DNA of 64,000 nt from Deltaproteobacteria bacterium RIFCSPHIGHO2_01_FULL_43_49 (GCA_001798075.1 MGRG01000012.1:91852-155851), one strand, 5' to 3'; counted from the stretch's first letter, positions 11,724 to 58,015 are shown. Made by a program: numbers and translations. Notes: generated by a model not told the origin, from the letters alone.

Positions 11724-11874
11724 AGCGAGTGGCTTGTATCTTAAACTCAAAAGGTAGTCACTACCTTTCTGTAAATTTTACCAAAAGGTAGCGTCTACCT
11801 TTTGATGATGCGCTGCAGCAATTTAATGCGGGCCACCTAGCAACATTCCTTACTTTCTGTCGATAAGGATAGTG

Positions 11875-15171: not shown

Positions 15172-15214
15172 TCCTTCCTTGCTGCACTCTGAAATTTAAG
15201 CTATTTTGGCTCGC

Positions 15215-31456: not shown

Positions 31457-31849
31457 GTGAAAATTCTATTCGTTTGCGAATACAACGCTTGTCGGAGTCA
31501 GATAGCTGAGGGGCTGGCCCGTGCGCTCCTTCCGGAAAATTTTTCAATAACGAGTGCCGGTATTTATCCTGGTGAGTTGAATTGGGTCACCATTGAAGTA
31601 ATGAAGGAGATCGGGATCGACATCTCAACCCAGAGGTCCAAGTTGCTTGCAGAAGTATTGGACAGGCGTTTTGATCAAGTAATTGTCCTGGCAGAAGCGG
31701 CATGGAGGGCGGTCGAGATGTTAAAAACCGACCACAAATTGCTTTGGCCCTTTCCTGATCCAGCATGCGATCCCGGCGATGCCGAAGCGGTGAAAGGACG
31801 AATCCGCAGAGTTCGAGATCAGTTGAGAGAGAGGATTTTAACCCTATGA
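31457..31849 (+). CDS. low-molecular-weight phosphotyrosine phosphatase / arsenate reductase family protein
   Basis: CX5R P-loop VCEYNACRSQ near the N-terminus. Start taken at GTG 31457 (track start is TTG 31421). Stop overlaps the otsA start (ATGA). Confidence 0.7.
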   Translation: MKILFVCEYNACRSQIAEGLARALLPENFSITSAGIYPGELNWVTIEVMKEIGIDISTQRSKLLAEVLDRRFDQVIVLAEAAWRAVEMLKTDHKLLWPFPDPACDPGDAEAVKGRIRRVRDQLRERILTL

Positions 31850-42430: not shown

Positions 42431-43951
42431 ATGTTACGACTCTCCATACCGGTCAAGGTCCTTTTGGCCGCAGGCTTTGGTTATGTTGCCATTCTTTTCG
42501 CGACCACCTGGGCCACTTTGGTTTACTCTCTCGACACTCAGGACCTCTGGCTGGGAATAAAAATTGAACATTGGTTTCTGATCGGAGAAATTTTCTTCGT
42601 CGTTTTAGTGGCCACCATTACCTCCTATTTTTTACTGGATCGTCCCTTGAACAAGTTGACCGAGATCATGAACAAGGCCGGAGAGGGAGATTTCTTAATC
42701 CGTGCTCCCAACAATCGCTCGGACGAAATCGGCATGTTGGCAGACAATTTTAATAAGATGCTAGCAAGAGTCACCGATCTCTCCGCCAACAAAATCCAGA
42801 CCGATCACGATTTGATCATTGTTCAAGAAGAGTTGAAGTACAAAAAGAGTTTAGAGGAGAAGACAAAACTTATTGAAAGGGCAAATCACACTCTCGAAAA
42901 TCTTGTCAAAGATTTATCCCTTCTTTACGAAATTGGGCAGAGTATTAACCAAACAATCGATCTAGAACAACTCTATCAAGTCATTGGAGATGTTTTGAAA
43001 CGCAATTTAAGGTTGAAAAATTTTTCTTTGATGGTTTGGAACGACAAACATCAAGTTTTAACCGTCAAAACGGTCTTCGGTTTTGAAAAAGACTCCAAAG
43101 TAAAACAGATGACATTCCAAGCAGGAGAGGGAATTGCCGGAGAAGTTTTGAAAACGGGAAAAACGATTTATGTTGGCGATGTAAAAAAGGAAACGCGCCT
43201 TGTTGAAAGGGGTCTTGAGTTATTGGGCTCCATATTGTCCGTGCCGTTAACCTATAAGGGTGAGACACTGGGTGTTATTAATTTTGGCAGAGACAAGACC
43301 TATTCTTTCACCAATCATGATGTGAAAATGCTGACCTTGGTTGCCAATCAGGTTGCCCTCGCGATGGCGAATGCCAGACTCTACACGCAAACCAGAGAAC
43401 TTTCCGTGACCGACGAACTGACCGGTGTTTTCAATCGCAGACACTTTGCGCAAGTTTTACAATTGGAGTGGAAAAGGGCAGTCCGTTTTAAACGAGAACT
43501 TTCTTTGCTTATGATCGATGTCGACTATTTCAAACGCTACAATGATACCTATGGGCATTTGAAAGGAGACGAGGCCTTAAAAGAAATTGGAAAGATACTG
43601 ATTGCCAATTTGCGTGAGGTTGATACCGTCGCCCGCTTTGGTGGGGAAGAATTTATTGTGCTCCTGCCCGATACCGATAAGCGTGGCGCTCAAGCGGTGG
43701 CTGAAAAATTAAGACATCTTGTTCAAGAAAAAATCGAAGCGATCACGATTAGTGTGGGAGTGGCAACGTATCCCGATGATGTGACCGAGATGGATGACTT
43801 GATTGACCATGCCGATATCGCTCTTTATAACGCCAAAGACAAAGGCCGCAACCGGGTGTTGACCTACACGGGCGGTAAACCCCCAGAATCTTTAAATCCC
43901 CCCTCCGAAGAAAAACAAGATTCCAACATCAAACCAAGGTTAGTGCATTAA
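42431..43951 (+). CDS. diguanylate cyclase with TM, HAMP and GAF regions
   Basis: GGEEF active-site motif (RFGGEEFIVLLPDTD); HAMP-like LNKLTEIMNKAGEGDFLIRAP; two N-terminal TM helices. ATG 42407 is an alternative start. Confidence 0.85.
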   Translation: MLRLSIPVKVLLAAGFGYVAILFATTWATLVYSLDTQDLWLGIKIEHWFLIGEIFFVVLVATITSYFLLDRPLNKLTEIMNKAGEGDFLIRAPNNRSDEIGMLADNFNKMLARVTDLSANKIQTDHDLIIVQEELKYKKSLEEKTKLIERANHTLENLVKDLSLLYEIGQSINQTIDLEQLYQVIGDVLKRNLRLKNFSLMVWNDKHQVLTVKTVFGFEKDSKVKQMTFQAGEGIAGEVLKTGKTIYVGDVKKETRLVERGLELLGSILSVPLTYKGETLGVINFGRDKTYSFTNHDVKMLTLVANQVALAMANARLYTQTRELSVTDELTGVFNRRHFAQVLQLEWKRAVRFKRELSLLMIDVDYFKRYNDTYGHLKGDEALKEIGKILIANLREVDTVARFGGEEFIVLLPDTDKRGAQAVAEKLRHLVQEKIEAITISVGVATYPDDVTEMDDLIDHADIALYNAKDKGRNRVLTYTGGKPPESLNPPSEEKQDSNIKPRLVH

Positions 43952-44613
43952 GTTTTTTGCAAGAGATCCCGCACTTTCTTCATATCTTCCCAAACAGGCC
44001 TTTTTGCATCGGGGTTTCGGAGTAAAAAGGCAGGGTGGTAGGTAGGCATGACTTTGATTCCTCTAAACTCCTGCCACTGACCTCTCATCGCAGAGATTTT
44101 TTGGTCAGTTTCCAAGAGATATTGAAAGGCAACCGAACCTAAACAAACAATAACCTTTGGTTTGATCGTTTCGATTTGCTGATGCAAAAATGGAATACAG
44201 GTTGCCGCTTCATCCGGCAGTGGCGCTCTGTTTTCAGGAGGGCGGCATTTGGCTATATTCGCAATATAGACAGTGCTTCTTTTGAGGCCCATTGCCTCAA
44301 TGATTTTGGTGAGCAATTGACCGGCACGGCCGACAAAAGGCTCTCCTTGAATATCTTCATCACGCCCGGGGCCTTCGCCAATAAACATCAATTGAGCCTT
44401 GGGACTTCCCACACCAAAGACGATGTTTTTGCGCCCCTCGCAAAGCCGGCAGCGCTTGCAATCACCAATCTCGGCACGAATTTCTTCAAGGGTTTTTGGT
44501 TTTTCTGAGCCACCTTTTTTTGATTCCCCTTTAGGCACCCATTCCAGGCCTAGCTGCTTTTGATAAAGGAGGCTTTGTTTTAAATCTTGCACTAACTTTG
44601 TGATATCTGACAT
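43948..44613 (-). CDS. uracil-DNA glycosylase, family 4
   Basis: CKRCRLCEGRKNIVFGVGSPKAQLMFIGEGPGRDED...GRAG matches the family 4 UDG pattern. Confidence 0.85.
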   Translation of the reverse strand: MSDITKLVQDLKQSLLYQKQLGLEWVPKGESKKGGSEKPKTLEEIRAEIGDCKRCRLCEGRKNIVFGVGSPKAQLMFIGEGPGRDEDIQGEPFVGRAGQLLTKIIEAMGLKRSTVYIANIAKCRPPENRAPLPDEAATCIPFLHQQIETIKPKVIVCLGSVAFQYLLETDQKISAMRGQWQEFRGIKVMPTYHPAFLLRNPDAKRPVWEDMKKVRDLLQKT

Positions 44614-44643
44614 ATGTATTGATGTTGCCGGCTTGGCTACCTG

Positions 44644-44775
44644 GCGATGAGGGCGCCGAAAGTACGTGATATTTTTTGGGTCGGCCCAAAAAATTCGCTC
44701 GACTCTCGCCCCGCCAGTCTTTTATCCCGATAAGGTGTGGCGGGGCTGCGAGACGACTTTCGTCCCCCTCATCGC
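44644..44775. repeat. GC-rich compound palindrome between the UDG and phospholipase-C-like genes
   Basis: 20-bp outer inverted repeat (GCGATGAGGGCGCCGAAAGT / ACTTTCGTCCCCCTCATCGC) enclosing hairpin TTTTTTGGG-TCGG-CCCAAAAAA and a second imperfect inverted repeat. Confidence 0.5.
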
Positions 44776-44809
44776 CACGCCACGCCGGCAACAGTCAATA
44801 ACGAATGAA

Positions 44810-45733
44810 ATGTTTCTTGTCTATCTTACAATTATAATTCTCGGTCTGTTTCTGGATCCCATTGTTGCGCACGCCTGGGGCCCAGGAACGCATCTTGATA
44901 TTGCTCTGACTGTTTTGCAACATTCTTTTTGGGCGTTGCCGACTGTTCGTGCCCTCATTGAAACTTATCGTGACGACTTTATCTACGGGGCTGTCAGCCC
45001 CGACATCATCGTTGGAAAAAAGTATGCGGGGGCCATTTATCACTGTCACAACTGGTCGATTGGCAAACTCATTTTGGAAGAGGCTCAAACCGACATGGAA
45101 CGGGCCGCGGCGTGGGGTTATCTCACACACCTTGCCGCCGACACGGTGGCCCATAATTATTTTGTACCCTTTAAAATCATTCGCAGTTTTTCGACACGGT
45201 CTCTTTCTCATGTTTATTGGGAGATGCGTTATGACCTTCATATTCCAGATCATTGTTGGAAAGAGTTTAAACATGTCATCCGCCAGGACTACAGACCTTT
45301 TGATCATCTCTTAGAGCGCGTTTTGAAGAAAACAATTTTTTCTTTTCGCACCAACAAAAAGATTTTTAATAGCATTTTAATTCTGCAAAAAATGAAGCAA
45401 CTTCGTTTTGGGCTTAAAGTTTATGCAAAAGCCTCCCGGTGGGAATTGCCAGAAAGAGATAGGAGACACTATAAAGAATTGACTTTAGAGACGATTAAAG
45501 ATTTTTTGCGCCACCCCCAACAAGCAAAATGTTTAAAAGCTGATCCGGCAGGACAGAGAAAATTACTTTATGCCGCGGAGACGAGAAAACAACTAAAAGA
45601 CTTCACAAAAGAAAAGAGGCGTAACAAAGAAATCACTCAATTTCTCGAATCAGTAAAACAAAAACTCCATCGCGGCCTGTTTGATTCAACAGTGAGCCTA
45701 CCAAATCTTTACGATTTCGCTAACTATCGTTGA
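44810..45733 (+). CDS. zinc-dependent phospholipase C-like protein
   Basis: Signal-like N-terminus then HAWGPGTHLDIA, GAVSPD, THLAADTVAHNYF. Start taken at internal ATG 44810 because the track ORF start lies inside the palindrome. Confidence 0.65.
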   Translation: MFLVYLTIIILGLFLDPIVAHAWGPGTHLDIALTVLQHSFWALPTVRALIETYRDDFIYGAVSPDIIVGKKYAGAIYHCHNWSIGKLILEEAQTDMERAAAWGYLTHLAADTVAHNYFVPFKIIRSFSTRSLSHVYWEMRYDLHIPDHCWKEFKHVIRQDYRPFDHLLERVLKKTIFSFRTNKKIFNSILILQKMKQLRFGLKVYAKASRWELPERDRRHYKELTLETIKDFLRHPQQAKCLKADPAGQRKLLYAAETRKQLKDFTKEKRRNKEITQFLESVKQKLHRGLFDSTVSLPNLYDFANYR

Positions 45734-46415: not shown

Positions 46416-46445
46416 GAAGCAACTTTTTTGAGGATTTGCCGAAAA
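46416..46445 (+). promoter_or_regulatory. conserved 30-bp box copy 2 (GAAGCAACTTTTTTGAGGATTTGCCGAAAA), candidate promoter of the four-gene operon
   Basis: 27 of 30 identical to 42306-42335; ends about 20 nt before the operon start codon, followed by RBS AGGAGAGG. Confidence 0.35.
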
Positions 46446-46465
46446 CAATTAGGAGAGGTTTTTTA

Positions 46466-48046
46466 ATGGCTGAGAAGTGTCAATTAATTAGTAAATTATC
46501 AGTGTCACCCTCCATACTGCTCGGTAGTTTTCTTTATGATATCAGCAAGTTAGGTGGAAATCCTGGGGAGCTAGACACCTGTGACCTAAAGGTTTTCCAA
46601 AAGGAATTGGGTATTTCTTTGCCCCAAAAAGCATTTCTCGACAAATTTGGAAAAGGGGATTCGTTTAAACTCATTGAAGCCTCTGAATTTCTTTATAATC
46701 AGTATTTATATGCCCCCAACAATAAATATTATGCGTTTTACCCCAAATATTTCAGCAATCAGACCCATGCGGATCTCGCAGAAGTGGCTCTTCGTGACCT
46801 AAAAACGACCCTGGAACCTATCGTCGAAGTAGGAGTCCTCAAAAAAATTCCTATCTACGAGCGCATCTTGAAAGAACCGGCCCTGGCAGAATGGCTTTCT
46901 GTTGATGAAAAAGAAAAAATTGGAGCAGACATTGCAAAAATTCGTGAACTTTTTGAAGAAAAGAACTGGAAAGACCTCTACCCCCGCATGGACACTTTTG
47001 AAGTATCTCTCCCTGATTTGTACGAGACGATTAGCCAACGAGCTCAGGATAACGTTAAATTTTGGGAAAGGGCTGTTGTTGCAACGGAAGTTGTTCACAA
47101 TGTGTTATTTATCGGGGCCGGTGTTGCAGTGGGAATCGTTGCTGGCCCTGTGGCAGCTGTTGGTGCGACACTGGCATTCGGTTTATCTTCCCTCGCCTCC
47201 GAAGAAACTGCCAAAGCTATTTCACAAGATGACTATACATGGCAAAATGCTTTGAAATCTTTTGGCTATCACGCACCGTTTGATATTATCAAAAGTGCCG
47301 CTTTCCTATTTCCGCCACTCAAGGCTGCAACCATCTTTGTGGGAGCCACTTTTGTGGAAGTTGCGGCAGACCCATTTGGAGAACCGAAACCTGTTGTTGA
47401 CCGTTTGATTGATGGAGGTTTTTCAGCTCTGGTTGCAGCGGCCACTTTTTTCGTTGGGAAAAAAGCCGGCGAAAAACTGGGGCCTTATTTTGCAAAATAT
47501 TTTAGAAGAGCCATCCAGCCAGTTCCGGAGTCACCTCAACTTGTCAGACCAACAGTTGTTGAAACTCGAACGGCTACTTCTCCCTCGCCACCTGTTGAAC
47601 CGCCTCCTCCAAAAATGGAAGTGGAGCCTGCACCGCCACCCCCCACCCCCAAACCAAAAAGGGTCGAAGCCAGACCCAAAAATGGTGGCCCTAATGGAGC
47701 ATCGCATTCAGAGAAGGTCTTGCACACCATCAAGAAAACACGATTTGCAGAAGATTGTTTTGAAAAGCTCACACCGTTGGTTAAAGGAAAAATGGAGGAG
47801 TTTGTTGCAACACTCGTTAATAAATTAAATTTCGGAGTTCCTATTGCAAAAATTGCTAATGTCATGCGGAACAAGGATTTCGCCGGTGTTTGGGAAGGAC
47901 GTTTCATGTCTGCTAGCAATGCGAGAGTCTATTTTAAAATCACCGATGATCCCAATGGTTCCAAAATAGTTGAGATTCTCGGTTATTCTTTAGGAGAAGC
48001 CGATCGCATTGCTATTTTACAGCATTTTGCTGGTGGGAGGCATTAA
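46466..48046 (+). CDS. operon gene 1: membrane-type protein with Gly/Ala-rich hydrophobic segments, Pro-rich linker and RelE/ParE-like C-terminal domain
   Basis: ATG 46466 with AGGAGAGG RBS; hydrophobic segments (VLFIGAGVAVGIVAGPVAAVGATLAFGL; FSALVAAATFFVG); linker SPSPPVEPPPPKMEVEPAPPPPTPKPK; C-terminus AGVWEGRFMSASNARVYFKITDDPNGSKIVEILGYS resembles the RelE/ParE toxin pattern. Confidence 0.6.
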   Translation: MAEKCQLISKLSVSPSILLGSFLYDISKLGGNPGELDTCDLKVFQKELGISLPQKAFLDKFGKGDSFKLIEASEFLYNQYLYAPNNKYYAFYPKYFSNQTHADLAEVALRDLKTTLEPIVEVGVLKKIPIYERILKEPALAEWLSVDEKEKIGADIAKIRELFEEKNWKDLYPRMDTFEVSLPDLYETISQRAQDNVKFWERAVVATEVVHNVLFIGAGVAVGIVAGPVAAVGATLAFGLSSLASEETAKAISQDDYTWQNALKSFGYHAPFDIIKSAAFLFPPLKAATIFVGATFVEVAADPFGEPKPVVDRLIDGGFSALVAAATFFVGKKAGEKLGPYFAKYFRRAIQPVPESPQLVRPTVVETRTATSPSPPVEPPPPKMEVEPAPPPPTPKPKRVEARPKNGGPNGASHSEKVLHTIKKTRFAEDCFEKLTPLVKGKMEEFVATLVNKLNFGVPIAKIANVMRNKDFAGVWEGRFMSASNARVYFKITDDPNGSKIVEILGYSLGEADRIAILQHFAGGRH

Positions 48047-50418
48047 TGACCACTATTAATTTTGGCTTTATTGAAGCAGCCATCACTGCAGCCCAGGCAG
48101 CCCAAGCGGCTTCTAATAGGGCTGAATTAGATGCCGCATTGGAAAAATTGGGGAGGGCGATCCATCCCCTGGATACCTTTGCTGATGGCAATCTATCCCC
48201 CTTGGTGGAAAGGCTGACGAGTGGTAGAAGAGCTGTCACTGAAGCAGAACTGAATCAAGTTATCAGGACTATCAACGATGCCGGGGATAAATACCGGGCA
48301 AGTTCAGGCACAAAGGAATCAAAAGCCAGCAGTGCGCACACAGGGCACGGTGTTCATGGAAGCCCCAATCCTTATCTTATTCAAGTAGGTCAGTCTAAAA
48401 CTTTTTCCCCGCGCCCTAACCAAGCCTACATCGCACGGAAAGCAGTGAGCCATTTTAGAGAAGAACACAGAGGTTTTTTTCGCCTCGATACAGGTGAGGG
48501 TAAAACACCAACATACGGATTCATCATTCAAGAACTTCGCAAAGAACTTCCCGATGAATACCAAGAGGCACTTGTTGTCATGGGTTGCCATCAAGCAGAA
48601 CCCGCTCGCAAATTGGCAGAGACGATGAAACATATGTTTCGTGATGAAAAAATCATGTTTTTAGAGGGAGGTATTGAAGCAGAAGATTTTAAAAGAGTTA
48701 CTTTTGTGGTGGGGACCTATCAACAACTAGCACAAAAATCGAGTATTGACGTTTTGAAAGAATGGGCTGGTCAAAAAAGAATTCTTTTTGTCTTGGATGA
48801 AGCGGACATGGTTGTTTTCAAAGGTATTGCAGAAGATGAACATCGAATGGCTACTTGGATTCGTCTCTTGATCGACTTTGGAGTCTTTACACAACATGGG
48901 CATTATCTTGCCAGAACACGGCATCGACTGTTGGGGGCCTCTGCAACCCTTGATCGCCCTGATGAAATTTCTCTCTCAACTGTTTGGGGTCCTGGAAATG
49001 TTTTCTATCATACACCGATGGCAGAGGGGGTTCGGCGCGGCACTCTTGTGCCCGTGGTTGGTCATGTCTTAGAAATGGATGTTCCAGAAAAAGAAAAACA
49101 TCTCTTCAGGGATTTTACGAAGATTGTGGATGGTAAGATTGTGGTTGATAAAACAAAAGTGATGTCTGCCTGCGGCAGTGATCATGCTGTTAAAACATCG
49201 GTTCGAGCTGTGATCGATCATATGAAGATGAAGATTGGTGCTGGAACGACAAAGGGTGAAGCAGTGCGGCGTGGGATCGGTTATGCCATGGACACCACTG
49301 CCTTGGAAAAACACATGCGCTGGCAGCAAGAATTATTTGGGTTGGTAGAGGTTATTTTCCAAATTTATCAAGGCTTGGCTGCATCAAAACCAATGCATGT
49401 TGATACAATCCTCGCTCATCTTGGTGGTCTGGAGAAACTAGATGCGTTTGGTCAAACTTTAAAACGGTTTCTCTATGCTAGAGAATGGAAAACGGTGGAA
49501 TCCCTTTACAGAAAGGCGGTCAGTTCTTTAAAAAATGGGAGAAAAGAAGGTATTTCGGAATTGTTCACTACTCTCTATTCTATTTTGAATGTTGATGTTC
49601 GCAGAATCAAAGGAAGACCTTTGGTGGCCACGGCTGTCTGGCAAAGTATGGACATGGATCGTGAAGGCAAAAAAATTCCTCGTGAGGCTCGTCGCACTCA
49701 ATATCTCAACAAATTTGGTGATCGGGAACTAACGATGAAGGGCTTCAATGCTGGGGTGATCGACATGCTCTGGAGCATTGGGATGTTGGACAGAGGTTTC
49801 GACGAACCGATGGCAAGCTTAATTGTTGATAATGCCCCTAGTTCATCGAGAAGAGAAGTGGTGCAAAGGGCAGGCCGTATCATGCGACCACCCGACCCCA
49901 AAAATCCTAAAGATCATAGTCAAAAACCAGAATCTATTTATATTACACTGACACCCAATTTGGAAGCCCACCATCTCGATGTGGCCAGAAAAGATTTAGC
50001 CCGAGTTTTTGGTACCGAAGTAGATCCTGAGCTCAATATCATTAAGATTCGCCCTACCAAAGAAGGGGATTTTGAGTGGCGTACTCCCGATCCTGTTCAA
50101 CTTGATTTGGGAGGTGATAAAAAAGTCCATTTAGTGTTGGTTGGGGCTAGAACCGTGGAGGCATTGGTTCATTTTTTAAAAGGACGTTATGGGAAAGATT
50201 ATGATCCCGAAATTTTGGCCTTCGATGCCGGTGTTGGGGTTGAAGAAGTTGATGATTTATTGCGGGCCATTCGTTTTCCCAAGGAATCCAGATTACGTGC
50301 CTTTTTAAAAAATTGGCGTGCCGATGATGCAACAATCCACCAAATCATGGCAATCTATCACTCCGATCTTGCCGACATGAAAACGGTCTATGGTAACGCC
50401 TGGAGGATTGTGCAATGA
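48046..50418 (+). CDS. operon gene 2: SF2 helicase / ResIII-type ATPase
   Basis: Motif I LDTGEGKT (about 48490), motif II LDEADM (about 48796), motif III SAT (about 48934), motif VI QRAGRIMRP (about 49861). Start overlaps the gene 1 stop by 1 nt. Confidence 0.75.
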   Translation: MTTINFGFIEAAITAAQAAQAASNRAELDAALEKLGRAIHPLDTFADGNLSPLVERLTSGRRAVTEAELNQVIRTINDAGDKYRASSGTKESKASSAHTGHGVHGSPNPYLIQVGQSKTFSPRPNQAYIARKAVSHFREEHRGFFRLDTGEGKTPTYGFIIQELRKELPDEYQEALVVMGCHQAEPARKLAETMKHMFRDEKIMFLEGGIEAEDFKRVTFVVGTYQQLAQKSSIDVLKEWAGQKRILFVLDEADMVVFKGIAEDEHRMATWIRLLIDFGVFTQHGHYLARTRHRLLGASATLDRPDEISLSTVWGPGNVFYHTPMAEGVRRGTLVPVVGHVLEMDVPEKEKHLFRDFTKIVDGKIVVDKTKVMSACGSDHAVKTSVRAVIDHMKMKIGAGTTKGEAVRRGIGYAMDTTALEKHMRWQQELFGLVEVIFQIYQGLAASKPMHVDTILAHLGGLEKLDAFGQTLKRFLYAREWKTVESLYRKAVSSLKNGRKEGISELFTTLYSILNVDVRRIKGRPLVATAVWQSMDMDREGKKIPREARRTQYLNKFGDRELTMKGFNAGVIDMLWSIGMLDRGFDEPMASLIVDNAPSSSRREVVQRAGRIMRPPDPKNPKDHSQKPESIYITLTPNLEAHHLDVARKDLARVFGTEVDPELNIIKIRPTKEGDFEWRTPDPVQLDLGGDKKVHLVLVGARTVEALVHFLKGRYGKDYDPEILAFDAGVGVEEVDDLLRAIRFPKESRLRAFLKNWRADDATIHQIMAIYHSDLADMKTVYGNAWRIVQ

Positions 50419-51725
50419 GTGTAAGTGTTGTCACTCCTGCAGGATATGTTACCGGCCTACTTGGTAATCTGGAGACCCTAAGTGTTGCCGGTCAAGAATC
50501 AGACATTGCAGAGGTCTTAAACGATTTATTTCCTCAAGTAGATCGTCTTGGTAATGCTGAACTTGGACAGCGTTTAAAAAAAGTAGCAACCGCGTTGCAA
50601 AATGGTGATTATAAAAGAACTCAATGGTTACAATCTTCATTATATCGTGAACTCACTGATCTTCAAGCAGCACTCCAAAGTGGTCAAGCTATTGAAGAGG
50701 CATTGCAAGCAAGACAAGCTGCTCAAGCGTTAAAAAAAATAGAAGGACCAGGCGGCGGGCGATTTACCTCTTCCATTACTGCAAGACCAGTTCAAAGAGT
50801 TTCTGTTGGACCACCACCAGTCATTGAATGGGAGAAGTTTGGATCTAGAAGGTATCCTGCACCGCTCCCCCCAAGTGAAGAGGTGAATACAGCGGGCAGA
50901 CGATTGGCTTATGTTGTCAGTTACGTTGCCGGAATGGCAGGTCATGGGGAATTCACGGCTGATACAGAAGATTTTTATAGCATCAGTTCTGAGATGCGCA
51001 GACGTATCGAAAAAGCGTTATTCGTTCCCAAAGCATTGGGCCAGTTTCCAACACGGGATGCAAGATCGATTATTATCAAAGCCCATCAATTAGAGCCGCT
51101 TTATGGAAGATTAGTTCAAGAACTTCTGATCCAATCTATTTTTGAATCACAGGGTTGGTCGTTGGGCGTTCCACTCTCCGATGCCCCGTGGGATCTCTCT
51201 TTTTTGTATGCCTTGAGACGCTATGGTGCGATGCAGTTGTTGGCCTCCGAAGAGAAAGCAAAAGAAGTGTCGGAAGACAAAGCGCTCATTCGCGTTGTGC
51301 AAGGCAAAGTCAGTTTGGAAGCGGTGAACTGGCATCCAGGCAAAACCCGTCGCGAAGTTTTTGAGCCTTGGTTACAAGGGATAGCCAGCAGAAATGGTAA
51401 CAATGAAAAACTTTTAGAGAGACAACGCAAATATATTGGCGATGGAATTTTGCGTGCAACAAATTGGCAGCCTCCTCGCAATGGCGCTGGTTGGGAGCCG
51501 CAACTCCAATGGATGGTCAGGCGCTGGATTGCCCATTTTCATTTTGGTGCTTTGCCGGCCCGGGGACTTCCATTTAAAACCGATGTGATCATTCGTTTTG
51601 CAATGGCGAAACACCCAACAAAACTAGATTTAACTTTTGCGAGAGCTTTGTTGGCCATGATGCGTGATTATTATTCAAAGGCAGAATTACAAGCCATGGG
51701 GGATTTTATACCGAGGGATAAATGA
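50415..51725 (+). CDS. operon gene 3: hypothetical protein (436 aa)
   Basis: 4-nt overlap (ATGA) with the helicase stop; no recognisable motif. Confidence 0.6.
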   Translation: MSVSVVTPAGYVTGLLGNLETLSVAGQESDIAEVLNDLFPQVDRLGNAELGQRLKKVATALQNGDYKRTQWLQSSLYRELTDLQAALQSGQAIEEALQARQAAQALKKIEGPGGGRFTSSITARPVQRVSVGPPPVIEWEKFGSRRYPAPLPPSEEVNTAGRRLAYVVSYVAGMAGHGEFTADTEDFYSISSEMRRRIEKALFVPKALGQFPTRDARSIIIKAHQLEPLYGRLVQELLIQSIFESQGWSLGVPLSDAPWDLSFLYALRRYGAMQLLASEEKAKEVSEDKALIRVVQGKVSLEAVNWHPGKTRREVFEPWLQGIASRNGNNEKLLERQRKYIGDGILRATNWQPPRNGAGWEPQLQWMVRRWIAHFHFGALPARGLPFKTDVIIRFAMAKHPTKLDLTFARALLAMMRDYYSKAELQAMGDFIPRDK

Positions 51726-54700
51726 GTATTGTTATCTCAAGGGGTTTAGCAGCACTTCAGTCTCAGATGGCAGAAGGTCTTGCCCGACTAACAGCTGACA
51801 ATGCCGCACTTTTTCAACCAGATTCTTCGTCTTCTTATGAAAACCCTGCTTTGTTAGCTGCGCAACGTTACACAAAAGAAGAACCAAGGAAAATTTCGCC
51901 CGGCATTTTCCTTCACGACATGCACGGGGCCTTGAAAAAAGTTGCCGGTTCTCGTTTCGTTGCTAAAACTCCAGAGAATGAAGACAAAGCATTTTTAAGG
52001 GCTATCGTGGGTGGTCTTTCCCTCTTTTTGGGGAAAATGGACGCGCAAAGTGAAACAGAGATTGCAGGAATGGTAGATCAAGTAATCTCGCAGATTGCAG
52101 ACCCTGCCATTCAAAAGCTTATTTTGGGTGCCGGCATTGCATTGCCAACTTCTTCCACAACGTCTGTAGCTGTTTCAGCTCCTTTAACGGTCTTGCCACC
52201 TGTTGTAGCCGCACCACAACCTCCTGCTCCAACTGTTGCTGCTCCTATCACGACAACTCTTACCCCTTTTGACTATCATCCAAACAGTGAAGAGAGGTTG
52301 GATGCTGAGTTTGAATATCGTCTCGCGAATGTTCACCAGCGCATTCAAGATGCAAATATTTCCTGGCCCTATGATTTTGTCAGATGGTGTCGCTCCCTTT
52401 ATCTTTTGGCAGGTGAGTTGCCAAATGGAGATGCAGCAAGGGTACGTGGAAATATCACCCGTGGTTTAAGAAGAATCAACGAGTTAGCCTCCATCAGTGT
52501 CGAAGATATTCGTCGCCTGTTAGGTCCTTCTGCGATGGCAGTGGGTCGTTACCCCGAAGGAATTTCGCAAGATTGGCCACGAGATATATCCAATGATTTT
52601 GGTTCTGCCATTATTGCTGTCCACGATGTCGGTGAAACTGTCATTGCCAACAAAGCAGCCCTCCTCTGGAAGGCAAGCACTGGCTTAGAAAATCAAGATG
52701 AGATTAGAGGTGATTTGGTTTCGATCCTGCGTCGTTTCGAAATAGCTTTGTTATCGGGAAGAGAAACAGATCATGAGGAAATAGAAAAAGCGCTTGATGA
52801 AATTGCGTTGAAAATTCCGGAAGCCAAACGCCCGGAAATGTTCTTAAAGAAAGAAACAGTACCACAGCCTTCACCCATCCCGTTAGAACCCATGTCGCAA
52901 GCAGAGTGGGTACAAAAAAGTTTGGATTTTTTGGTTTATGAAAAATCAAAATGGGGAAGTATGGAAGGAGAACTCTCCAATCAATTAGAGCATCTTTTTA
53001 AATTATTGAAAGTCGAAGAGGCTTTAGCACCACGTGCACCAGAGCTGTTGGGATTGGCATTTCAACTGATGTTATCTTATCGCCAGATGGTGGGGGTATC
53101 CGGAATAGAAGCTTTGGCATTGGGTAAAGATCCCAGCCTACCGATCAGTTTTGAAGACAGGGCTAAAGCCTTTGACATGATGAAGGCTGCCCACAACCAG
53201 CTCGATCTTCTTCAAGAGTGGGGTGATGCCTATAATAAAGATCCAAAAGCTTATCAACCGTTGTTCGGTGAAAATGGTCTTGCCGAAATAGTCTCTCGCT
53301 ACATCGTTCATGCTCGAGGAGGATCCCAAAACCCACTTGAAGAAGCGAGTGGAAATTTTGTTCAAGCACACCCTGAGTTGAAACTTTCAACTGCTATGGC
53401 CCGCAGGTTACTATCCTATTTTGTTGGGCTAACAGATGGAACTTTTAACGAGGCTTTCTTACAAGAAGTGTTAGGGGCCAAACCTAAGGCTCAAGAAGCG
53501 GCTGGACCAGAGCTTGATTTAGAAAATACCCCATTTTTGGATGTTGATCCAAATAAATACACTCCCTATGGGCGCGTTTTTGGAAAAGTTGTTCTGGATG
53601 GAGGAGTCATCCGAGTAGGCGGTGGCAAAAATAGACCTGGGATCTTTTTTGGGATTTATTTGACAACCTTAGAAAAGATTTACCGAAAATACCGTGAACA
53701 AGTTCGCACATCCGGTAGCAGTAGTTTCGAGTCGGCCTATACATTGGCCGTGAAGCAGGAAAAATATCAAGAAAGATATAGAAAAGACTATGAAAAATTG
53801 TTTGGGGATCTTCTTAGATTGCTGGGTGAAAATAAGGATATGGCCGATTTGGTGGAAACAGCAATTTTGTCTGGTAAGACTCAGTTAAAGGTACCTGAAA
53901 AGCAAGCAATACCTACAAGTGGCGGCCCTCCCATGGAACGACCTGTGGAAGAGGCGCCTACTGCAGCGCTAGCGCCAACACCAGCTCCAGTTTCAGTACC
54001 ACCATCGGTTGAAGTATCGAGACCAGCTGCAACAAGGGTTGATGAAGCCGTCTTTGCCGGTGCCGCACTCGTTTCACCCGATGCTCCTCCTGCCGAAGCT
54101 AACCCCTTTATCGAAGCAGCTGCAATAGTATCAGAGTTTGTTCCACCCCCAGCAGAGGTAGTTGTATCTTCAGGAGTTGCCGTAGTCGAAGTGCCACCAC
54201 CTGTTGAAACAGCGACAATTCCAGCGATCGAAGAAGAAATATTAATTGTAGATGAAGTAGAGGTAGAAACATTTCCAGCGATTCTAGCCCCCTATATTAC
54301 TAAATGGTCCCTGGGTGAAGTTGAGAAAAAAGTATTGCAAGATATGTGCGCGGTAACTTCACCAGAAGCTGTTTTGAAAGCTCTGGATAATATTGAACAA
54401 AACAGTTGGGAGAGTGAGGAGCGAAAAAGAAAGATTCTGACAGAATATGCAAGGGCTTTAGAACTTGGAAGAATAACAGAGAGAGGTAAAAAAAGAGTTG
54501 TAGAGCTTCTGGCCTCTAAGGAAAATTTTGGGAGGGTGAGACTTCTCCTATCTGTTGCCGCTGCAAAACCGACCAGTCTGGTTTTGGATCAGATTATTCC
54601 AGACCCCATTCAGTTGGGCAAAAAGGGGGGGCGATATCTAGATATTGACTTTAAATCTTACCCTCCTGTAGCTGTGGTTCGGCCTGCAATCACTCTTGCA

Positions 54701-57145
54701 GAAGGATTATACGAAGAAATAGCCGTCATGCCGAGTGGGCGTTCCGTATTGATTAGAGGACCTTTTAAAGGGGATGCCATTGATATCGGAATAGATCACG
54801 GGCAGCTCCAGAAAGGGATCGGTGGTCTTTTAGGTGAATTGGCAAGGGCTCAAGGGGCCATTGAAAGTGGCGCGCGAACCTCTCTCTTGCTCCTCGTTTT
54901 TAACGAAAATGGCATGACACCGCGTGCCCGAAAATACTTTTTTAGCCAGCACCCTCAAGGCACTTTGATTGAATGGTATGGAAACACTTTTAGTCGGTGG
55001 TCTTTAGAAAAATATGACGATGAAATTATGCTGCAGGAAACCCGTTTTGATAGAGAAGGGAATAAAATTTCTGAAAAACTTAATTCTATTGAAACATTCG
55101 AAGGAGAAGTAGAAGTTCATTTTGTTACAGCCAATGATCGCAATCCCCACACGGAACGCCTGATAGAAAAACCAACCACGCGAGCAATTGAAGATTTAAG
55201 GGCGATGGGAGAATCCAAAGAAGCGATTCGTTTGAAAGTTGTTCGGGATGCGGCCATTAACGCCGTCGGTTTTCTCAATCCCAATCACCCCGATGCAGAT
55301 AAAGTCATCGAAGTGGCTAAGAAGTTTGGTCAATCTCGTCTTAGTAAGAGACAAATTGTTGAATTGAAAGAGGAGCTGGATGCAGTTGTCATTGAAATAG
55401 AACATCGCTTTGACTCCACAATACCTCCTAAAGCTGTCGAATTGGCAGCCCTTGTGGGTGTAGAAAAATTAACTCAGTTGCTGACAATAAAAGGAATCTC
55501 TTCTGAAAATGTCGATGAATTGATCCATCACCTCTTGGTTTTAAAAACCAAGTTCAATGGAGAAGTCATTGTCAAAATAGTCGATCAATTGTTGGAAGTG
55601 AGTACAAAAAATCTCGCCCACTTTACAACACTTCTCAACCGCCTTGCTCAACTAGAAAGACTAGTAAGACAACGGGGTTTAAACATCACCGATATCACTT
55701 TAAAACCAGAAACCCTTTATGGTGGATGGGCCCTGACTTTGGATGGAAAGGTCATCTTGATCGGTTCTACTAAGGGGGAACCTTTTCATGTCCCATTCCC
55801 ATTGGGCGGGACAATGAAACAGGCTGAAGGGATTGCCGGAGCTTTAGCTCCCAATTTCGAAAGGGTAGAAGATGCGATTTTAGAAGGGAATGTGAGTGGC
55901 TTGCTTTTAATGTTGGTTGGAGAAGATGGAATTACCGAGCAAGGTAGAGACTCACTTTGGACAACCTTTGGATCCGATGCAGAAGTCTGGGTTCTCAAAA
56001 TAACCAATGATCAACAGGCCGATCATTATATCTTCAAAAAGAATAAAGAGGGCCCTTTGGCCGAATCGCTGGGAGAAGAAATTTATGAGGTGATCTCCTT
56101 TGCTCGTGAAGAAGAAGAAATTAAAATTGAAAAACTGGAACGAAAAGAAAGCCGTCAGGTCGTCAGTCCACTTTTGCTTGCAAAAAGAATTCTCGGTGTT
56201 GTGAAGCCCAAACCTTCTCCAGAGGGTGCACCAGCAAAGAAGCGTTGGGAACACATTGACGCGGATTTTGCAAAAATCTTTGCTGATCATGAGGTTACTG
56301 CACAACAAATTTGGGGACCTTTGAGCGAAATTGTGAATGATGAACGTGTTTTGAAAAAAGGAGATGCATTTATTGATTTGATGGAGTTTGCCGATCAGTT
56401 AAATGGAACCTTTGAAGCTCATTTAATGCCAATGAGTGCCTTGGCAACGGGAATTCAAATTGGAGAGCCCGTTTTTCCGGGAATAGACTTGCTCAAATGG
56501 AGAGATTTAATCGAAACTTCGACATTAGGAATCCAAGAAGCACTGTTTGATCTTAGTGACACAGAAGAAGAGGGAATCGCAAAAATCGTAAAGATTCCCC
56601 AACATCTGCATGAGTTTCATCTTTTGCTTCATCAGATTTTGATGGTTGAACTAAACGGTTATCGCAACCTCCTTAATCGGTTAGACAGTGTGAAGGCTTC
56701 AAGCGACATCCCGCCCGATTTGGCAAGACAAAAGGAATTGATTGAAACACTTCGAGGGCGTGCTGCAGATTTGGGAAAATACCTGGGGGCCGATTTCTTT
56801 AAAGAGCTCAATAAGATTCGGACCATCATGCAAAACAGAATCAATTACTTTAATGAAGTGTTGAAACCCAAGATTTTTGAATTTCAAACGAGGGATGATT
56901 TGGAGCTTCCTTCTTCGAATCCAATAACATCCGACCTCTATGCTTTTGTGGATAAATATGGTTTTAAACGGGGAAGGGAGGCAGAGCATGGAGTTCTCTT
57001 TGTAAATCCAGCTACAGGAATAACCGTAAATCTGCCCTACGACGATAAAGGTCTTGATCCACGCACGATGAAAAACTCCAGATCGGATGCTATAAAAGCT
57101 GTCGAAGAATCTTTGCGTAAAGAAGGCCGCATGCCCCCTGCTTAG
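51722..57145 (+). CDS. operon gene 4: giant hypothetical protein (1,807 aa) with Pro/Ala/Val-rich linkers and an internally duplicated ~95-aa module
   Basis: 4-nt overlap with gene 3; low-complexity linker at about 53910-54250; paired modules at about 54730-54990 and 55740-56000 share GxxxLLxLVxExGxT; no catalytic motif recognised. Confidence 0.65.
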   Translation: MSIVISRGLAALQSQMAEGLARLTADNAALFQPDSSSSYENPALLAAQRYTKEEPRKISPGIFLHDMHGALKKVAGSRFVAKTPENEDKAFLRAIVGGLSLFLGKMDAQSETEIAGMVDQVISQIADPAIQKLILGAGIALPTSSTTSVAVSAPLTVLPPVVAAPQPPAPTVAAPITTTLTPFDYHPNSEERLDAEFEYRLANVHQRIQDANISWPYDFVRWCRSLYLLAGELPNGDAARVRGNITRGLRRINELASISVEDIRRLLGPSAMAVGRYPEGISQDWPRDISNDFGSAIIAVHDVGETVIANKAALLWKASTGLENQDEIRGDLVSILRRFEIALLSGRETDHEEIEKALDEIALKIPEAKRPEMFLKKETVPQPSPIPLEPMSQAEWVQKSLDFLVYEKSKWGSMEGELSNQLEHLFKLLKVEEALAPRAPELLGLAFQLMLSYRQMVGVSGIEALALGKDPSLPISFEDRAKAFDMMKAAHNQLDLLQEWGDAYNKDPKAYQPLFGENGLAEIVSRYIVHARGGSQNPLEEASGNFVQAHPELKLSTAMARRLLSYFVGLTDGTFNEAFLQEVLGAKPKAQEAAGPELDLENTPFLDVDPNKYTPYGRVFGKVVLDGGVIRVGGGKNRPGIFFGIYLTTLEKIYRKYREQVRTSGSSSFESAYTLAVKQEKYQERYRKDYEKLFGDLLRLLGENKDMADLVETAILSGKTQLKVPEKQAIPTSGGPPMERPVEEAPTAALAPTPAPVSVPPSVEVSRPAATRVDEAVFAGAALVSPDAPPAEANPFIEAAAIVSEFVPPPAEVVVSSGVAVVEVPPPVETATIPAIEEEILIVDEVEVETFPAILAPYITKWSLGEVEKKVLQDMCAVTSPEAVLKALDNIEQNSWESEERKRKILTEYARALELGRITERGKKRVVELLASKENFGRVRLLLSVAAAKPTSLVLDQIIPDPIQLGKKGGRYLDIDFKSYPPVAVVRPAITLAEGLYEEIAVMPSGRSVLIRGPFKGDAIDIGIDHGQLQKGIGGLLGELARAQGAIESGARTSLLLLVFNENGMTPRARKYFFSQHPQGTLIEWYGNTFSRWSLEKYDDEIMLQETRFDREGNKISEKLNSIETFEGEVEVHFVTANDRNPHTERLIEKPTTRAIEDLRAMGESKEAIRLKVVRDAAINAVGFLNPNHPDADKVIEVAKKFGQSRLSKRQIVELKEELDAVVIEIEHRFDSTIPPKAVELAALVGVEKLTQLLTIKGISSENVDELIHHLLVLKTKFNGEVIVKIVDQLLEVSTKNLAHFTTLLNRLAQLERLVRQRGLNITDITLKPETLYGGWALTLDGKVILIGSTKGEPFHVPFPLGGTMKQAEGIAGALAPNFERVEDAILEGNVSGLLLMLVGEDGITEQGRDSLWTTFGSDAEVWVLKITNDQQADHYIFKKNKEGPLAESLGEEIYEVISFAREEEEIKIEKLERKESRQVVSPLLLAKRILGVVKPKPSPEGAPAKKRWEHIDADFAKIFADHEVTAQQIWGPLSEIVNDERVLKKGDAFIDLMEFADQLNGTFEAHLMPMSALATGIQIGEPVFPGIDLLKWRDLIETSTLGIQEALFDLSDTEEEGIAKIVKIPQHLHEFHLLLHQILMVELNGYRNLLNRLDSVKASSDIPPDLARQKELIETLRGRAADLGKYLGADFFKELNKIRTIMQNRINYFNEVLKPKIFEFQTRDDLELPSSNPITSDLYAFVDKYGFKRGREAEHGVLFVNPATGITVNLPYDDKGLDPRTMKNSRSDAIKAVEESLRKEGRMPPA

Positions 57146-57573
57146 GCCTTTTCCCTTTTGGCGAGGTAGTCCAACACAGATTTGGCAAAGAGTTCGAAGT
57201 CGCTTAGATGTTGCTTAAGAACGCTATAAATTTCTTTGTCATCCGTTTCCCAATAAAGATGCACCAAGCGGTTTCTCATTTTTGCCATTTTTCGCAATTT
57301 TGTGAGAAAGCCCTCGGTGACCACTCCATTTTCCACGAGTACTTTAAAGCTGTCGGCATAGTCCTTTGGCGCTCTAAAGCCAAATCTGGAGATGAGATGG
57401 TTTGTCAAATCAAGACATGTCTCTAAAGCATATTGGAGATTGAGGCGAGCGCTGTCTTTTTTCATCGCATCTTTTAGGAAATCAGCCTCAGAAAATGCGC
57501 CGAGTTCTTTCAACTTTAAAACATATTGACGAAGCCGATCTACGAGCATTGTTACTTTTTTTATATCAACCAT
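57142..57573 (-). CDS. hepT: HepT-like (DUF86) toxin
   Basis: Rx4HxY motif (RNRLVHLY) near the C-terminus; overlaps the upstream MNT gene by 8 nt. Confidence 0.8.
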   Translation of the reverse strand: MVDIKKVTMLVDRLRQYVLKLKELGAFSEADFLKDAMKKDSARLNLQYALETCLDLTNHLISRFGFRAPKDYADSFKVLVENGVVTEGFLTKLRKMAKMRNRLVHLYWETDDKEIYSVLKQHLSDFELFAKSVLDYLAKREKA

Positions 57574-58015
57574 GCGTCAACCCTTGTTCGCGAATCGTTC
57601 GCAAACGTTCCGAGCAATAGTTATCGATAAAAAATTTGAAATCAAAATAATGTTTGCGTGTTCGCTCTTCATAATTTGCTCGTATAGTATCCGAAATTGC
57701 GTAGAGTAATTTGCCGTCTGTGATTACTTTTCCTTGAAAATCAAGAGGGGCATCATTGATAATTCGAACATCAAACTCAAACGTTGGAAAGGAACCTTCC
57801 AAAAGGTCTTCGATCTCAATTTCAAAATCCCATCGATTCTTTCCAAAGTGTTTTGTATTAATAACCAAAGCAATATCGACATCACTAAGGGGCGTGGAGT
57901 TGCCTGTTGCGTAGGAACCATGCAAATAAACAAGTTCCAAAAAGGAATTTTTTTTTGCTAATTCTCGGAAGGCCCTCCCCAAATTTTCTTTATCCTGAGG
58001 TTTCATGACACTCAT
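57566..58015 (-). CDS. mntA: MNT-type nucleotidyltransferase antitoxin
   Basis: Nucleotidyltransferase motif LHGSYATGNSTPLSDVDIALV immediately upstream of hepT. Confidence 0.8.
   Translation of the reverse strand: MSVMKPQDKENLGRAFRELAKKNSFLELVYLHGSYATGNSTPLSDVDIALVINTKHFGKNRWDFEIEIEDLLEGSFPTFEFDVRIINDAPLDFQGKVITDGKLLYAISDTIRANYEERTRKHYFDFKFFIDNYCSERLRTIREQGLTHG

What the first reader, a model, noticed from the sequence alone, without database searches (positions are those of the whole stretch)
51722..57145. 1,807-aa giant protein with Pro/Ala/Val-rich linkers and an internally duplicated ~95-aa module
The protein has low-complexity linkers (about 53910-54250: APTAALAPTPAPVSVPPSVEVSRPAA...VPPPAEVVVSSGVAVVEVPPPVE) and a smaller one near residues 150-190. 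Two segments at about 54730-54990 and 55740-56000 align to each other (..VLIRG..G....G.GGLLGELA....G...S.LLLLVFNENGMT versus ..VILIGS..G....AEGIAGALA....G..SGLLLMLVGEDGIT). The GxxLLxLVxExGxT pattern is faintly reminiscent of Roadblock/LC7 domains, but that is speculation. No catalytic motif was recognised, and proteins of this size are rare in bacteria.
Basis: partly seen in the sequence, partly recalled or inferred. Interest (0 to 1): 0.7.

Follow-up and report, generated by a model that had tools for sequence, protein, structure and literature searches.

The report
Orphan modular giant protein beside helicase
The 1,807-residue gene is real, has real flexible linkers and a real internal duplication, and belongs to a very rare, undescribed protein family that sits in an operon with an XPB-like helicase in a few uncultured groundwater bacteria; its function is still only inferred.

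The parts
51722..57145 (+). Giant ORF, 1,807 aa. No signal peptide or transmembrane segment.
51722..52141 (+). N-terminal region, aa 1-140. The extreme N-terminus is variable; it is followed by the conserved 'EDKxFLRxxVGGL...IAGMVEEV' segment. No structure was predicted for this part.
   Evidence: Resemblance to the N-termini of the helicase and Y was not significant (hhalign P 0.007-0.06).
52142..52261 (+). Linker 1, aa 141-180, 85% P/A/V/S/T. Its length is 14-45 aa in orthologues.
52262..53896 (+). All-alpha body, aa 181-725. Conserved motifs are PFDYHP, WPYDFxRWxRxLY, DWPxD-NDFGSA and YTPYGR. Its first ~200 aa form a subdomain that is itself duplicated in the separate protein P0008.
53897..54271 (+). 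Linker 2, aa 726-850, 64% P/A/V/S/T. It contains short conserved islands: GGPP at aa 734-737 and E..F...A.VSPD at aa 775-786.
54272..54643 (+). Conserved region preceding module A, aa 851-974, with the motifs 'W.L...EK', 'RITxRGK' and 'LLxVAA...LDQI.P'. No structure was predicted for it. In relatives it repeats together with the module.
54644..55126 (+). Module A, aa 975-1135. An alpha/beta core followed by a beta-meander, weakly restriction-endonuclease-like. D1021 ('DIG') is invariant in the four-sequence alignment and is also seen in the sequences of P0005-P0007. There is no (D/E)xK.
55127..55678 (+). Inter-module region, aa 1136-1319, with the conserved motif 'AVGFLxPxHPDA'. Its second half is variable and expands to ~250 aa in orthologues.
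   Evidence: It is not detectably homologous to the region before module A.
55679..56131 (+). Module B, aa 1320-1470. A degenerate second copy of module A that lacks the DIG aspartate and the arginine that is invariant in the unit alignment A6.
56132..56926 (+). C-terminal region, aa 1471-1735. Shared with P0002, P0003 and P0009; replaced by an unrelated ~900-aa region in P0004-P0007.
56927..57142 (+). Small C-terminal domain, aa 1736-1807, ending '...AIxAVEESLRKEGRMxPA'. HicA-like only at sub-threshold level.
   Evidence: Pfam HicA_toxin hit only for orthologue P0003: E 9e-4, 19.7 bits against a cut-off of 27. No HicA appeared in the PDB profile search.
50415..51725 (+). Y, 436 aa. An orphan protein that follows the helicase gene wherever the upstream DNA is readable.
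48046..50418 (+). SF2 helicase, 790 aa. Motifs: I GEGKT, II DEAD, III SAT followed by an invariant LDRPD, VI QRAGRIMR. Its RecA2 domain is closest to archaeal XPB.
46436..48046 (+). X, 536 aa; the true start is probably the ATG at 46466. It has a Gly/Ala-rich transmembrane-like segment (aa 213-254), a Pro-rich linker and a small C-terminal domain. It is poorly conserved and sits at different places in the operon in other genomes.

Best explanation
The ORF encodes a cytoplasmic, modular, flexible scaffold protein. It is the fast-evolving accessory subunit of a lineage-restricted machine built around a helicase.

Shown:
- The gene is the last in a translationally coupled operon, X - SF2 helicase - Y - giant.
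- Helicase plus Y form the conserved core of that operon.
- The giant consists of a 545-aa all-helical body, two Pro/Ala/Val-rich linkers of variable length, two copies of a ~150-aa alpha/beta module, and a small C-terminal domain.
- The modules lack a nuclease active site.

Inferred:
- The modules are degenerate restriction-endonuclease-fold domains that have lost catalysis. They would act as binding modules for a nucleic-acid structure or a partner protein, as inactive nuclease-fold domains do in ERCC1 or Zip2.
- The helical body and the conserved motifs inside linker 2 dock the helicase and/or Y.
- The linkers let the modules reach around the substrate that the XPB-like translocase engages.
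- The complex serves nucleic-acid surveillance, either repair-like or directed against foreign DNA.

The duplication itself is ordinary domain accretion. Relatives have one to three copies.
For: Operon and coupling: stop/start overlaps TAATG, ATGA and ATGA, with GGAGG-like sites upstream.

Synteny of helicase - Y - giant: seen in the window, L001, L002, L003, L004 and the ERZ27297570 contig. Y - giant is seen in L007 and L009.

Helicase: motifs I, II, III and VI are intact. The helicase family profile matches archaeal XPB/RAD25 best (E 5e-7) and XPBII next (E 5e-6), ahead of type ISP enzymes, eIF4A and UvrB.

Location in the cell: no signal peptide or transmembrane segment.

Helical body: confidently all-alpha.

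Evolution: an identity gradient to orthologous loci. Flanking housekeeping genes are 64-80% identical, the helicase 51-56%, Y 47%, the giant ~40%, and X 25% or undetectable. The giant ranges from absent (L008) through 593-703 aa (P0011, P0012) to 2,408 aa.
Against: - No biochemical function is demonstrated for any of the four proteins.
- The XPB link covers only the RecA2 domain. The RecA1 half gave no PDB match.
- Y shows no similarity to Bax1.
- No physical interaction between the proteins was tested.
- Nucleic-acid binding by the modules is pure inference.
- The helicase-Y pair exists without the giant in L008, so the giant is dispensable for whatever the core does.
Confidence: 0.35

Rival explanations
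1. The four genes form a new anti-phage or anti-mobile-element defence (conflict) system. The helicase senses or translocates on foreign nucleic acid. The giant is a variable sensor or effector platform. The membrane-like X protein is the killing effector.
For: - The giant and X diverge rapidly compared with their neighbours.
- The giant's C-terminal ~600-1,100 aa are swapped between two types, and modules are gained and lost.
- X has a Gly/Ala-rich membrane-like segment.
- Toxin-antitoxin or abortive-infection-type genes sit next to three loci: MNT/HepT in the window, HEPN/NTase plus AAA_14-DUF4143 in L008, and AbiEii in L010.
- The helicase C-terminus gives partial hits to PbeA and dnd_restrict_1.
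Against: - The operon sits at the same chromosomal site, between a flavoprotein gene and aminotransferase-CoaD-RsmD, in genomes whose housekeeping genes are only 64-80% identical (window, L001, L002; the downstream neighbours are also the same in L006). That is unusual for defence islands.
- No PADLOC model matches beyond the generic helicase C-domain.
- No recognisable effector domain is present.
- There are no matches on phages, plasmids or viral contigs.
- HEPN/MNT pairs are, to my knowledge, very common genes, so their adjacency may be chance.
Confidence: 0.3
2. It is a bacterial counterpart of the archaeal XPB-Bax1 helicase-nuclease repair machine. Y would play the Bax1 role, and the giant would be an added damage- or structure-recognition subunit.
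For: - The best PDB matches of the helicase profile are archaeal XPB and XPBII, including chains solved with Bax1.
- A gene of Bax1-like size (436 aa) immediately follows the helicase.
- Motif III is followed by an invariant LDRPD. From my memory of XPB sequences, the RED motif sits in that position in XPB.
- The genomic setting is housekeeping, with a uracil-DNA glycosylase gene 2 kb upstream.
Against: - RED is described as absolutely conserved in XPB (PMC3353954). Here it reads RPD, and I could not align the RecA1 halves.
- Pfam ERCC3_RAD25_C scores only 11.8 bits against a cut-off of 27.
- Y has no DUF790/Bax1 hit in Pfam and no hit to the Bax1 chains in the PDB at E<=10.
- The helicase carries large extra N-terminal, internal and C-terminal regions.
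Confidence: 0.15
3. The giant is a polymorphic-toxin-like effector. Its C-terminal HicA-like domain would be an RNase toxin, and the repeated modules would be active nucleases.
For: - There is a sub-threshold HicA_toxin match for the C-terminal domain of orthologue P0003: E 9e-4 on the isolated domain.
- C-terminal regions are alternative between family members.
Against: - The HicA hit is below Pfam's cut-off (19.7 against 27 bits). It is absent for the window protein and for P0002 and absent in the PDB profile search.
- In alignment A5, the only His in the first strand region of the window protein (H1764) is not matched in P0002 or P0003, and their His is not matched in the window protein. 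Which His HicA uses catalytically is from my memory.
- There is no (D/E)xK in the modules.
- There is no trafficking domain, no signal peptide and no downstream immunity-like gene. The next gene is a convergent HepT.
Confidence: 0.07
4. The modules are Roadblock/LC7 domains that regulate a small GTPase, or the protein is a secreted adhesin or RTX-type protein.
Against: - There is no Robl_LC7, adhesin or RTX Pfam match at E<=1.
- No GTPase gene lies in the operon, and there is no signal peptide.
- No tandem Ig-like, cadherin-like or RTX repeat family matched in Pfam.
Confidence: 0.03

Closest known systems
Archaeal XPB-Bax1 helicase-nuclease pair
   Same: An SF2 helicase whose RecA2 domain is most similar to XPB is followed directly by a co-transcribed partner gene of about 430 aa. 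A restriction-endonuclease-like fold occurs in the system: Bax1's nuclease domain is of that superfamily (PMC7293015).
   Different: The XPB-specific RED motif reads RPD. Y has no detectable similarity to Bax1/DUF790. The nuclease-like fold lies in a third protein, is duplicated and lacks catalytic residues. A membrane-like fourth protein is present. The helicase is about 300 aa longer than the archaeal XPB chains it matches (790 aa against 440-472 aa).
Catalytically inactive nuclease-fold domains used as binding modules (ERCC1 central domain, Zip2-Spo16)
   Different: There is no sequence homology and no HhH2 partner domain. The similarity is at the grey-zone level only and is not seen by Foldseek.
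HicA toxin (PF07927)
   Same: The last ~70 aa have a helix-strands-helix pattern that fits HicA as I read it, and one orthologue gives a sub-threshold HicA_toxin hit.
   Different: The hit is below the gathering threshold. The window's own sequence gives no hit. No His is conserved across the three orthologues in that region. The domain is fused to the end of an 1,800-aa protein rather than being a ~60-aa stand-alone toxin with a HicB partner.
Helicase-containing defence systems in PADLOC (e.g. Pbe, Dnd restriction)
   Same: It is a multi-gene operon with an SF2 helicase and large uncharacterised partners, and there are partial PbeA and dnd_restrict_1 hits.
   Different: The hits cover only ~60 residues of the generic helicase C-domain. 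Scores are far below family cut-offs (38.8 bits against 600 for dnd_restrict_1). None of the other three proteins matches any PADLOC model.

Membership tests
Roadblock/LC7 (Pfam Robl_LC7) | Sequence match to the Robl_LC7 profile | tested here: not met
   There is no hit at E<=1 in hmmscan of the whole protein or of the orthologues.
Roadblock/LC7 (Pfam Robl_LC7) | Roadblock alpha/beta fold | tested here: not met
PD-(D/E)xK (restriction-endonuclease-like) nuclease superfamily | [quoted passage not shown] | tested here: inconclusive
PD-(D/E)xK (restriction-endonuclease-like) nuclease superfamily | Catalytic D ... (D/E)xK residues | tested here: not met
   Module A keeps one conserved Asp (D1021, 'DIG'), but the following strand has no conserved (D/E)xK. 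Module B and the copies in P0011-P0014 lack even the Asp.
HicA toxin (PF07927) | Profile match above the gathering score | tested here: not met
   Only orthologue P0003 scores (19.7 bits against 27). The window's C-terminus and that of P0002 give no hit. The profile of the three C-termini finds no HicA chain in the PDB.
HicA toxin (PF07927) | Conserved catalytic histidine | tested here: not met
   In alignment A5 no His column is shared by all three orthologues. The position of the catalytic His in HicA is from my memory.
XPB/RAD25 helicases (for the upstream helicase) | SF2 motifs I, II, III and VI | tested here: met
   GEGKT, DEAD, SAT and QRAGRIMR are present. Pfam ResIII, DEAD and Helicase_C all score above their cut-offs.
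XPB/RAD25 helicases (for the upstream helicase) | RecA2 domain closest to XPB | tested here: met
   The helicase family profile matches 2fwr and 6p66 at E 5e-7 and XPBII at E 5e-6, ahead of all other helicases in the PDB.
XPB/RAD25 helicases (for the upstream helicase) | RED motif after motif III ('absolutely conserved' in XPB, PMC3353954) | tested here: not met
   All five orthologues read SAT-[LF]-D-R-P-D. The equivalence of position rests on my memory of XPB sequences, because the RecA1 halves could not be aligned to any PDB chain.
Bax1 / DUF790 (for Y) | Sequence match to DUF790 or to solved Bax1 chains | tested here: not met
   Pfam gives no such hit at E<=1. Neither the single sequence nor the six-sequence profile finds any Bax1 chain in the PDB at E<=10.
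Bax1 / DUF790 (for Y) | Four-domain fold with a Cas2-like domain and a nuclease domain | not tested
Surface adhesins / RTX proteins | Export signal and tandem Ig-like, cadherin-like or RTX repeats | tested here: not met
   The N-terminus has no hydrophobic signal-like segment, and the maximum 19-residue hydropathy anywhere is 1.44. No repeat family matched in Pfam.
Known anti-phage defence systems (PADLOC 2.0) | Match of the system's proteins to defence-system models | tested here: not met
   The giant, Y and X match nothing. The helicase matches only ~60 residues of the PbeA models.

The most novel reading that the evidence does not exclude
Helicase - Y - giant (+X) is a previously undescribed helicase-centred nucleic-acid surveillance system confined to an uncultured groundwater lineage. 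In it, a rapidly diversifying giant subunit built from dead nuclease-fold repeats and flexible linkers acts as the substrate-recognition platform for an XPB-like translocase. That would make it either a new class of defence system or a bacterial, much elaborated analogue of XPB-Bax1.
Probability: 0.3. Interest if true: 0.75.

Novelty: categorically new. Interest (0 to 1): 0.55.

Why it matters
Three of the four operon proteins have no detectable relative in any curated family or solved structure. The giant has only 13 relatives among 1.84 billion representative proteins, and Y only 12 in a word-indexed search of 5.8 billion clusters. If the operon is a functional helicase machine, it would be a new partner set for an XPB-like translocase in bacteria. 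One paper in hand (PMC3353954, 2012) noted that no XPB-partner complex like archaeal XPB-Bax1 had been identified in bacteria. It would also show catalytically dead nuclease-fold domains being multiplied as binding modules. The family also records domain accretion clearly: relatives run from no giant gene at all, through 182-703-aa versions with one or two modules, to 2,400-aa versions. The limits are real. The lineage is uncultured, the family is very small, and every functional statement is inferred.

Tried and rejected
- Self-BLASTP missed the repeat; Smith-Waterman with shuffles was needed.
- HicA-like C-terminus. Pfam was sub-threshold for one orthologue only. The PDB profile search gave ribosomal eL24 noise.
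- RelE/ParE-like C-terminus of X. There was no Pfam hit at E<=10.
- A shared N-terminal adaptor domain in the helicase, Y and the giant. The hhalign alignments are roughly in register, but P is only 0.007-0.06, so this is not established.
- Homology between the regions before module A and before module B of the window protein: none.
- Cross-homology of Y or the helicase with the module, the repeat unit or the helical body: none.
- The search for homologous proteins with the repeat-unit alignment returned nothing, not even the query proteins, so that search is uninformative.
- Scans of JGI metagenome contigs with Y and with the giant, and of viral contigs, found nothing.
- Plasmid and phage collections gave no match: Y against both, the helicase and the giant's C-terminal half against plasmids only.
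- The AFDB Foldseek library was unavailable.
- Promoter and terminator scans were uninformative.
- Literature searches for the genome name and for related giant-gene work found nothing relevant.


Full report
**1. The observation**

The window has one ATG-initiated ORF at 51722..57145 (+) of 1,807 aa. Its ATG overlaps the stop codon of the upstream gene (ATGA) and is preceded by a GAGGGA site.

Two low-complexity spacers are present as described. Residues 726-850 (nt 53897-54271) are 64% P/A/V/S/T. Residues 141-180 (nt 52142-52261) are 85% P/A/V/S/T. Both change length between orthologues, 97-125 aa and 14-45 aa. This is what flexible linkers do.

The internal similarity is real. Residues ~989-1131 align with ~1324-1465 at a Smith-Waterman score of 88. 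A thousand shuffles gave 31.3 +/- 5.1, with a maximum of 63. The best hit of the first copy anywhere else in the protein is exactly the second copy. BLASTP of the protein against itself had missed it.

An HMM trained on the two copies from the orthologues found an untrained third copy in orthologue P0002 (i-E 4e-4).

**2. What the protein is made of**

No Pfam, NCBIfam, PADLOC or PHROG family matches at meaningful levels, and no PDB sequence matches. There is no signal peptide or transmembrane segment. The highest 19-residue hydropathy is 1.44.

I predicted two pieces with AlphaFold2.

- **Module A**, with eight module sequences, gave pLDDT 78.3 and pTM 0.77. Its order of elements is three strands, helix, strand, helix, strand, followed by a beta-meander.

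The catalytic signature is absent. Module A keeps one conserved Asp (D1021, 'DIG'), placed just before the second strand of the model, but no (D/E)xK follows. Module B and the copies in distant relatives lack even that Asp. I read the modules as non-catalytic.

The last ~70 residues look HicA-like to my eye. Only orthologue P0003 gives a Pfam HicA_toxin hit, and it is below threshold (19.7 bits against 27). The window's own C-terminus gives none. A profile of the three C-termini finds no HicA chain in the PDB. No His is conserved across the three orthologues in that region. This remains a lead only.

**3. The family**

A word-indexed search of 5.8 billion protein clusters found only the protein itself and three relatives. 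The identical protein is named 'hypothetical protein A3F82_04255, Deltaproteobacteria bacterium RIFCSPLOWO2_12_FULL_44_12'.

An exhaustive HMMER search of 1.84 billion representatives, using a profile of residues 178-1235, found 13 proteins in all.

- Six are giants of 1,655-2,408 aa.
- Four of the giants (P0004-P0007) replace everything after about residue 1,230 with an unrelated ~900-aa region.
- P0008 (679 aa) is a separate gene holding the N-terminus plus two copies of the first ~200 aa of the helical body.
- P0010 (1,091 aa) matches only within the helical body.
- P0011-P0014 (182-703 aa) are short proteins holding one or two copies of a larger unit: a ~100-aa conserved stretch ('W.L...EK', 'RITxRGK', 'LLxVAA...LD') followed by the module.

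None has a Pfam domain. In the window protein, the stretch before module B is not detectably related to the one before module A.

The family is absent from the GTDB species representatives except for two genomes. It is also absent from JGI metagenome contigs and from viral contigs. The plasmid collection has no match to the giant's C-terminal half.

**4. Genomic context**

In the window four genes are translationally coupled, with junctions TAATG, ATGA and ATGA.

- **X (46436/46466-48046)** has a Gly/Ala-rich membrane-like segment and a Pro-rich linker.
- **The SF2 helicase (48046-50418)** has intact motifs GEGKT, DEAD, SAT and QRAGRIMR.
- **Y (50415-51725)** is 436 aa with no family or PDB match.
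- **The giant** is the last gene.

The order helicase - Y - giant recurs in L001, L002, L003, L004 and an ENA contig. In L004, P0008 is inserted between Y and the giant. Y - giant recurs in L007 and L009.

Y has only 12 relatives in the word-indexed search. Their contexts show that helicase + Y can occur without a giant (L008). They also show that X can follow the giant (L007) or follow Y (L010). The conserved core is therefore helicase + Y, and the giant is a variable addition.

In the window, L001 and L002 the operon sits at the same chromosomal site. A flavoprotein gene lies upstream in the window and L001 (L002's contig is cut there), and aminotransferase-CoaD-RsmD lie downstream. In L006 the short relative P0011 sits next to the same three downstream genes. 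Those neighbours are 64-80% identical to the window's. The helicase is 51-56% identical, Y 47%, the giant ~40%, and X 25% or undetectable. That pattern fits vertical inheritance within a lineage with fast evolution of the giant and X.

None of the three proteins tested (helicase, Y, giant) matched the plasmid collection, and Y did not match the phage collection.

**5. The helicase**

A five-sequence profile matches archaeal XPB/RAD25 best (2fwr, 6p66; E 5e-7), then XPBII (E 5e-6). These are ahead of type ISP restriction enzymes, eIF4A and UvrB. Only the RecA2 domain matches. The RecA1 half finds nothing in the PDB.

Motif III is followed by an invariant LDRPD. From my memory of XPB sequences, XPB has its RED motif at this position. 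RED is described as absolutely conserved in XPB (PMC3353954), so strict membership fails.

In archaea XPB is partnered by the ~450-aa nuclease Bax1, encoded next to it, whose nuclease domain belongs to the restriction-endonuclease-like superfamily (PMC7293015). Y has the right size and position but no detectable similarity to Bax1.

**6. Mechanism**

Shown:
- A real, conserved, cytoplasmic modular protein.
- Linkers of variable length.
- A duplicated alpha/beta module without a nuclease active site.
- Operon coupling to a helicase with intact motifs and to Y.
- Fast, modular evolution.

Inferred, at about 0.35 confidence: the giant is a flexible scaffold or recognition subunit for the helicase-Y core. 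Its dead nuclease-fold modules would bind a nucleic-acid structure or a partner. Its helical body and the conserved islands within linker 2 (GGPP; E..F...A.VSPD) would be docking sites.

Whether the machine serves repair or defence is open.
- **For defence:** rapid diversification, swapped C-termini, a membrane-like X, and toxin-antitoxin or abortive-infection-type neighbours at three loci.
- **Against defence:** the conserved chromosomal site, the lack of any PADLOC match and the absence from the mobile-element collections searched.
- **For an XPB-Bax1-like repair role:** the helicase's closest relatives and the gene order.
- **Against a repair role:** the altered RED motif and an unrelated Y sequence.

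Toxin, adhesin and Roadblock readings are poorly supported.

**7. Novelty and verdict**

With these tools, the giant, Y and X lie outside every curated family and every solved structure searched. The four-gene arrangement matches no system in PADLOC or in the literature I could search.

I rate it categorically new as a protein family and gene arrangement. Three cautions apply. Its function is inferred only. The module's fold assignment is weak. The family is tiny and confined to uncultured groundwater-type bacteria.

Interest is 0.55. The most novel reading still open is a new helicase-centred surveillance system with a diversifying dead-nuclease-repeat recognition subunit. I give it about 0.3 probability and 0.75 interest if true.

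Noticed in passing
window 57142-58015 (-): A HepT-like RNase (143 aa, Pfam E 2e-32) and its MNT nucleotidyltransferase partner (149 aa) form a toxin-antitoxin pair. It is wedged between the giant gene and the aminotransferase gene. HepT's stop codon overlaps the giant's stop codon, and the two genes converge. The pair is absent at the same site in L001, L002 and L006. A HEPN/NTase pair also abuts the helicase-Y pair in L008, and an AbiEii gene lies upstream in L010.
   Followed up: partly
window 53921-54112 (giant aa 734-797, inside linker 2): The otherwise variable Pro/Ala/Val linker contains short conserved islands: GGPP (aa 734-737), E..F...A.VSPD (aa 775-786) and, in most orthologues, a following NPF. 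These look like short linear docking motifs.
   Followed up: no
window 46436-48046 (+), protein X: The first operon gene probably starts at the ATG at 46466, which has AGGAGAGG upstream. It encodes a Gly/Ala-rich transmembrane-like segment (aa 213-254), a Pro-rich linker and a small C-terminal domain that looked RelE/ParE-like by eye but has no Pfam support. X homologues sit after the giant in L007 and after Y in L010.
   Followed up: partly
L004 8414-10660 (protein P0008): In one genome a separate 679-aa gene lies between Y and the giant. It encodes the giant-type N-terminus plus two tandem copies of the first ~200-aa subdomain of the helical body (PFDYHP...WPYDF). That subdomain is therefore an independent, duplicable unit.
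   Followed up: partly
window 48046-50418 (+), helicase aa 299-306: Helicase motif III (SAT) is followed by LDRPD, invariant in five orthologues. To my memory this is where XPB helicases carry their RED motif. The helicase also has ~115 extra N-terminal residues, a long stretch between motif III (aa 299) and the C-terminal helicase-domain match (aa ~560), and ~170 extra C-terminal residues.
   Followed up: partly
window 31765-34104 (+): The 32-34 kb stretch has 51.5% G+C against ~44% elsewhere in the window. It encodes a 779-aa protein with a glycosyltransferase family 20 (trehalose-6-phosphate synthase-type) domain in its C-terminal 470 aa and an unassigned ~290-aa N-terminal part. The raised G+C might reflect horizontal acquisition.
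   Followed up: no
window 43948-45733: Just upstream of the operon lie a uracil-DNA glycosylase superfamily gene (43948-44613, -) and a zinc-dependent phospholipase C-like gene (44666-45733, +).
   Followed up: no
window 11872-18211 (+): Two adjacent ORFs of about 1,000 aa. One has a CarboxypepD_reg domain. The other has PD40/WD40-like beta-propeller repeats and a DPPIV-N-like region.
   Followed up: no
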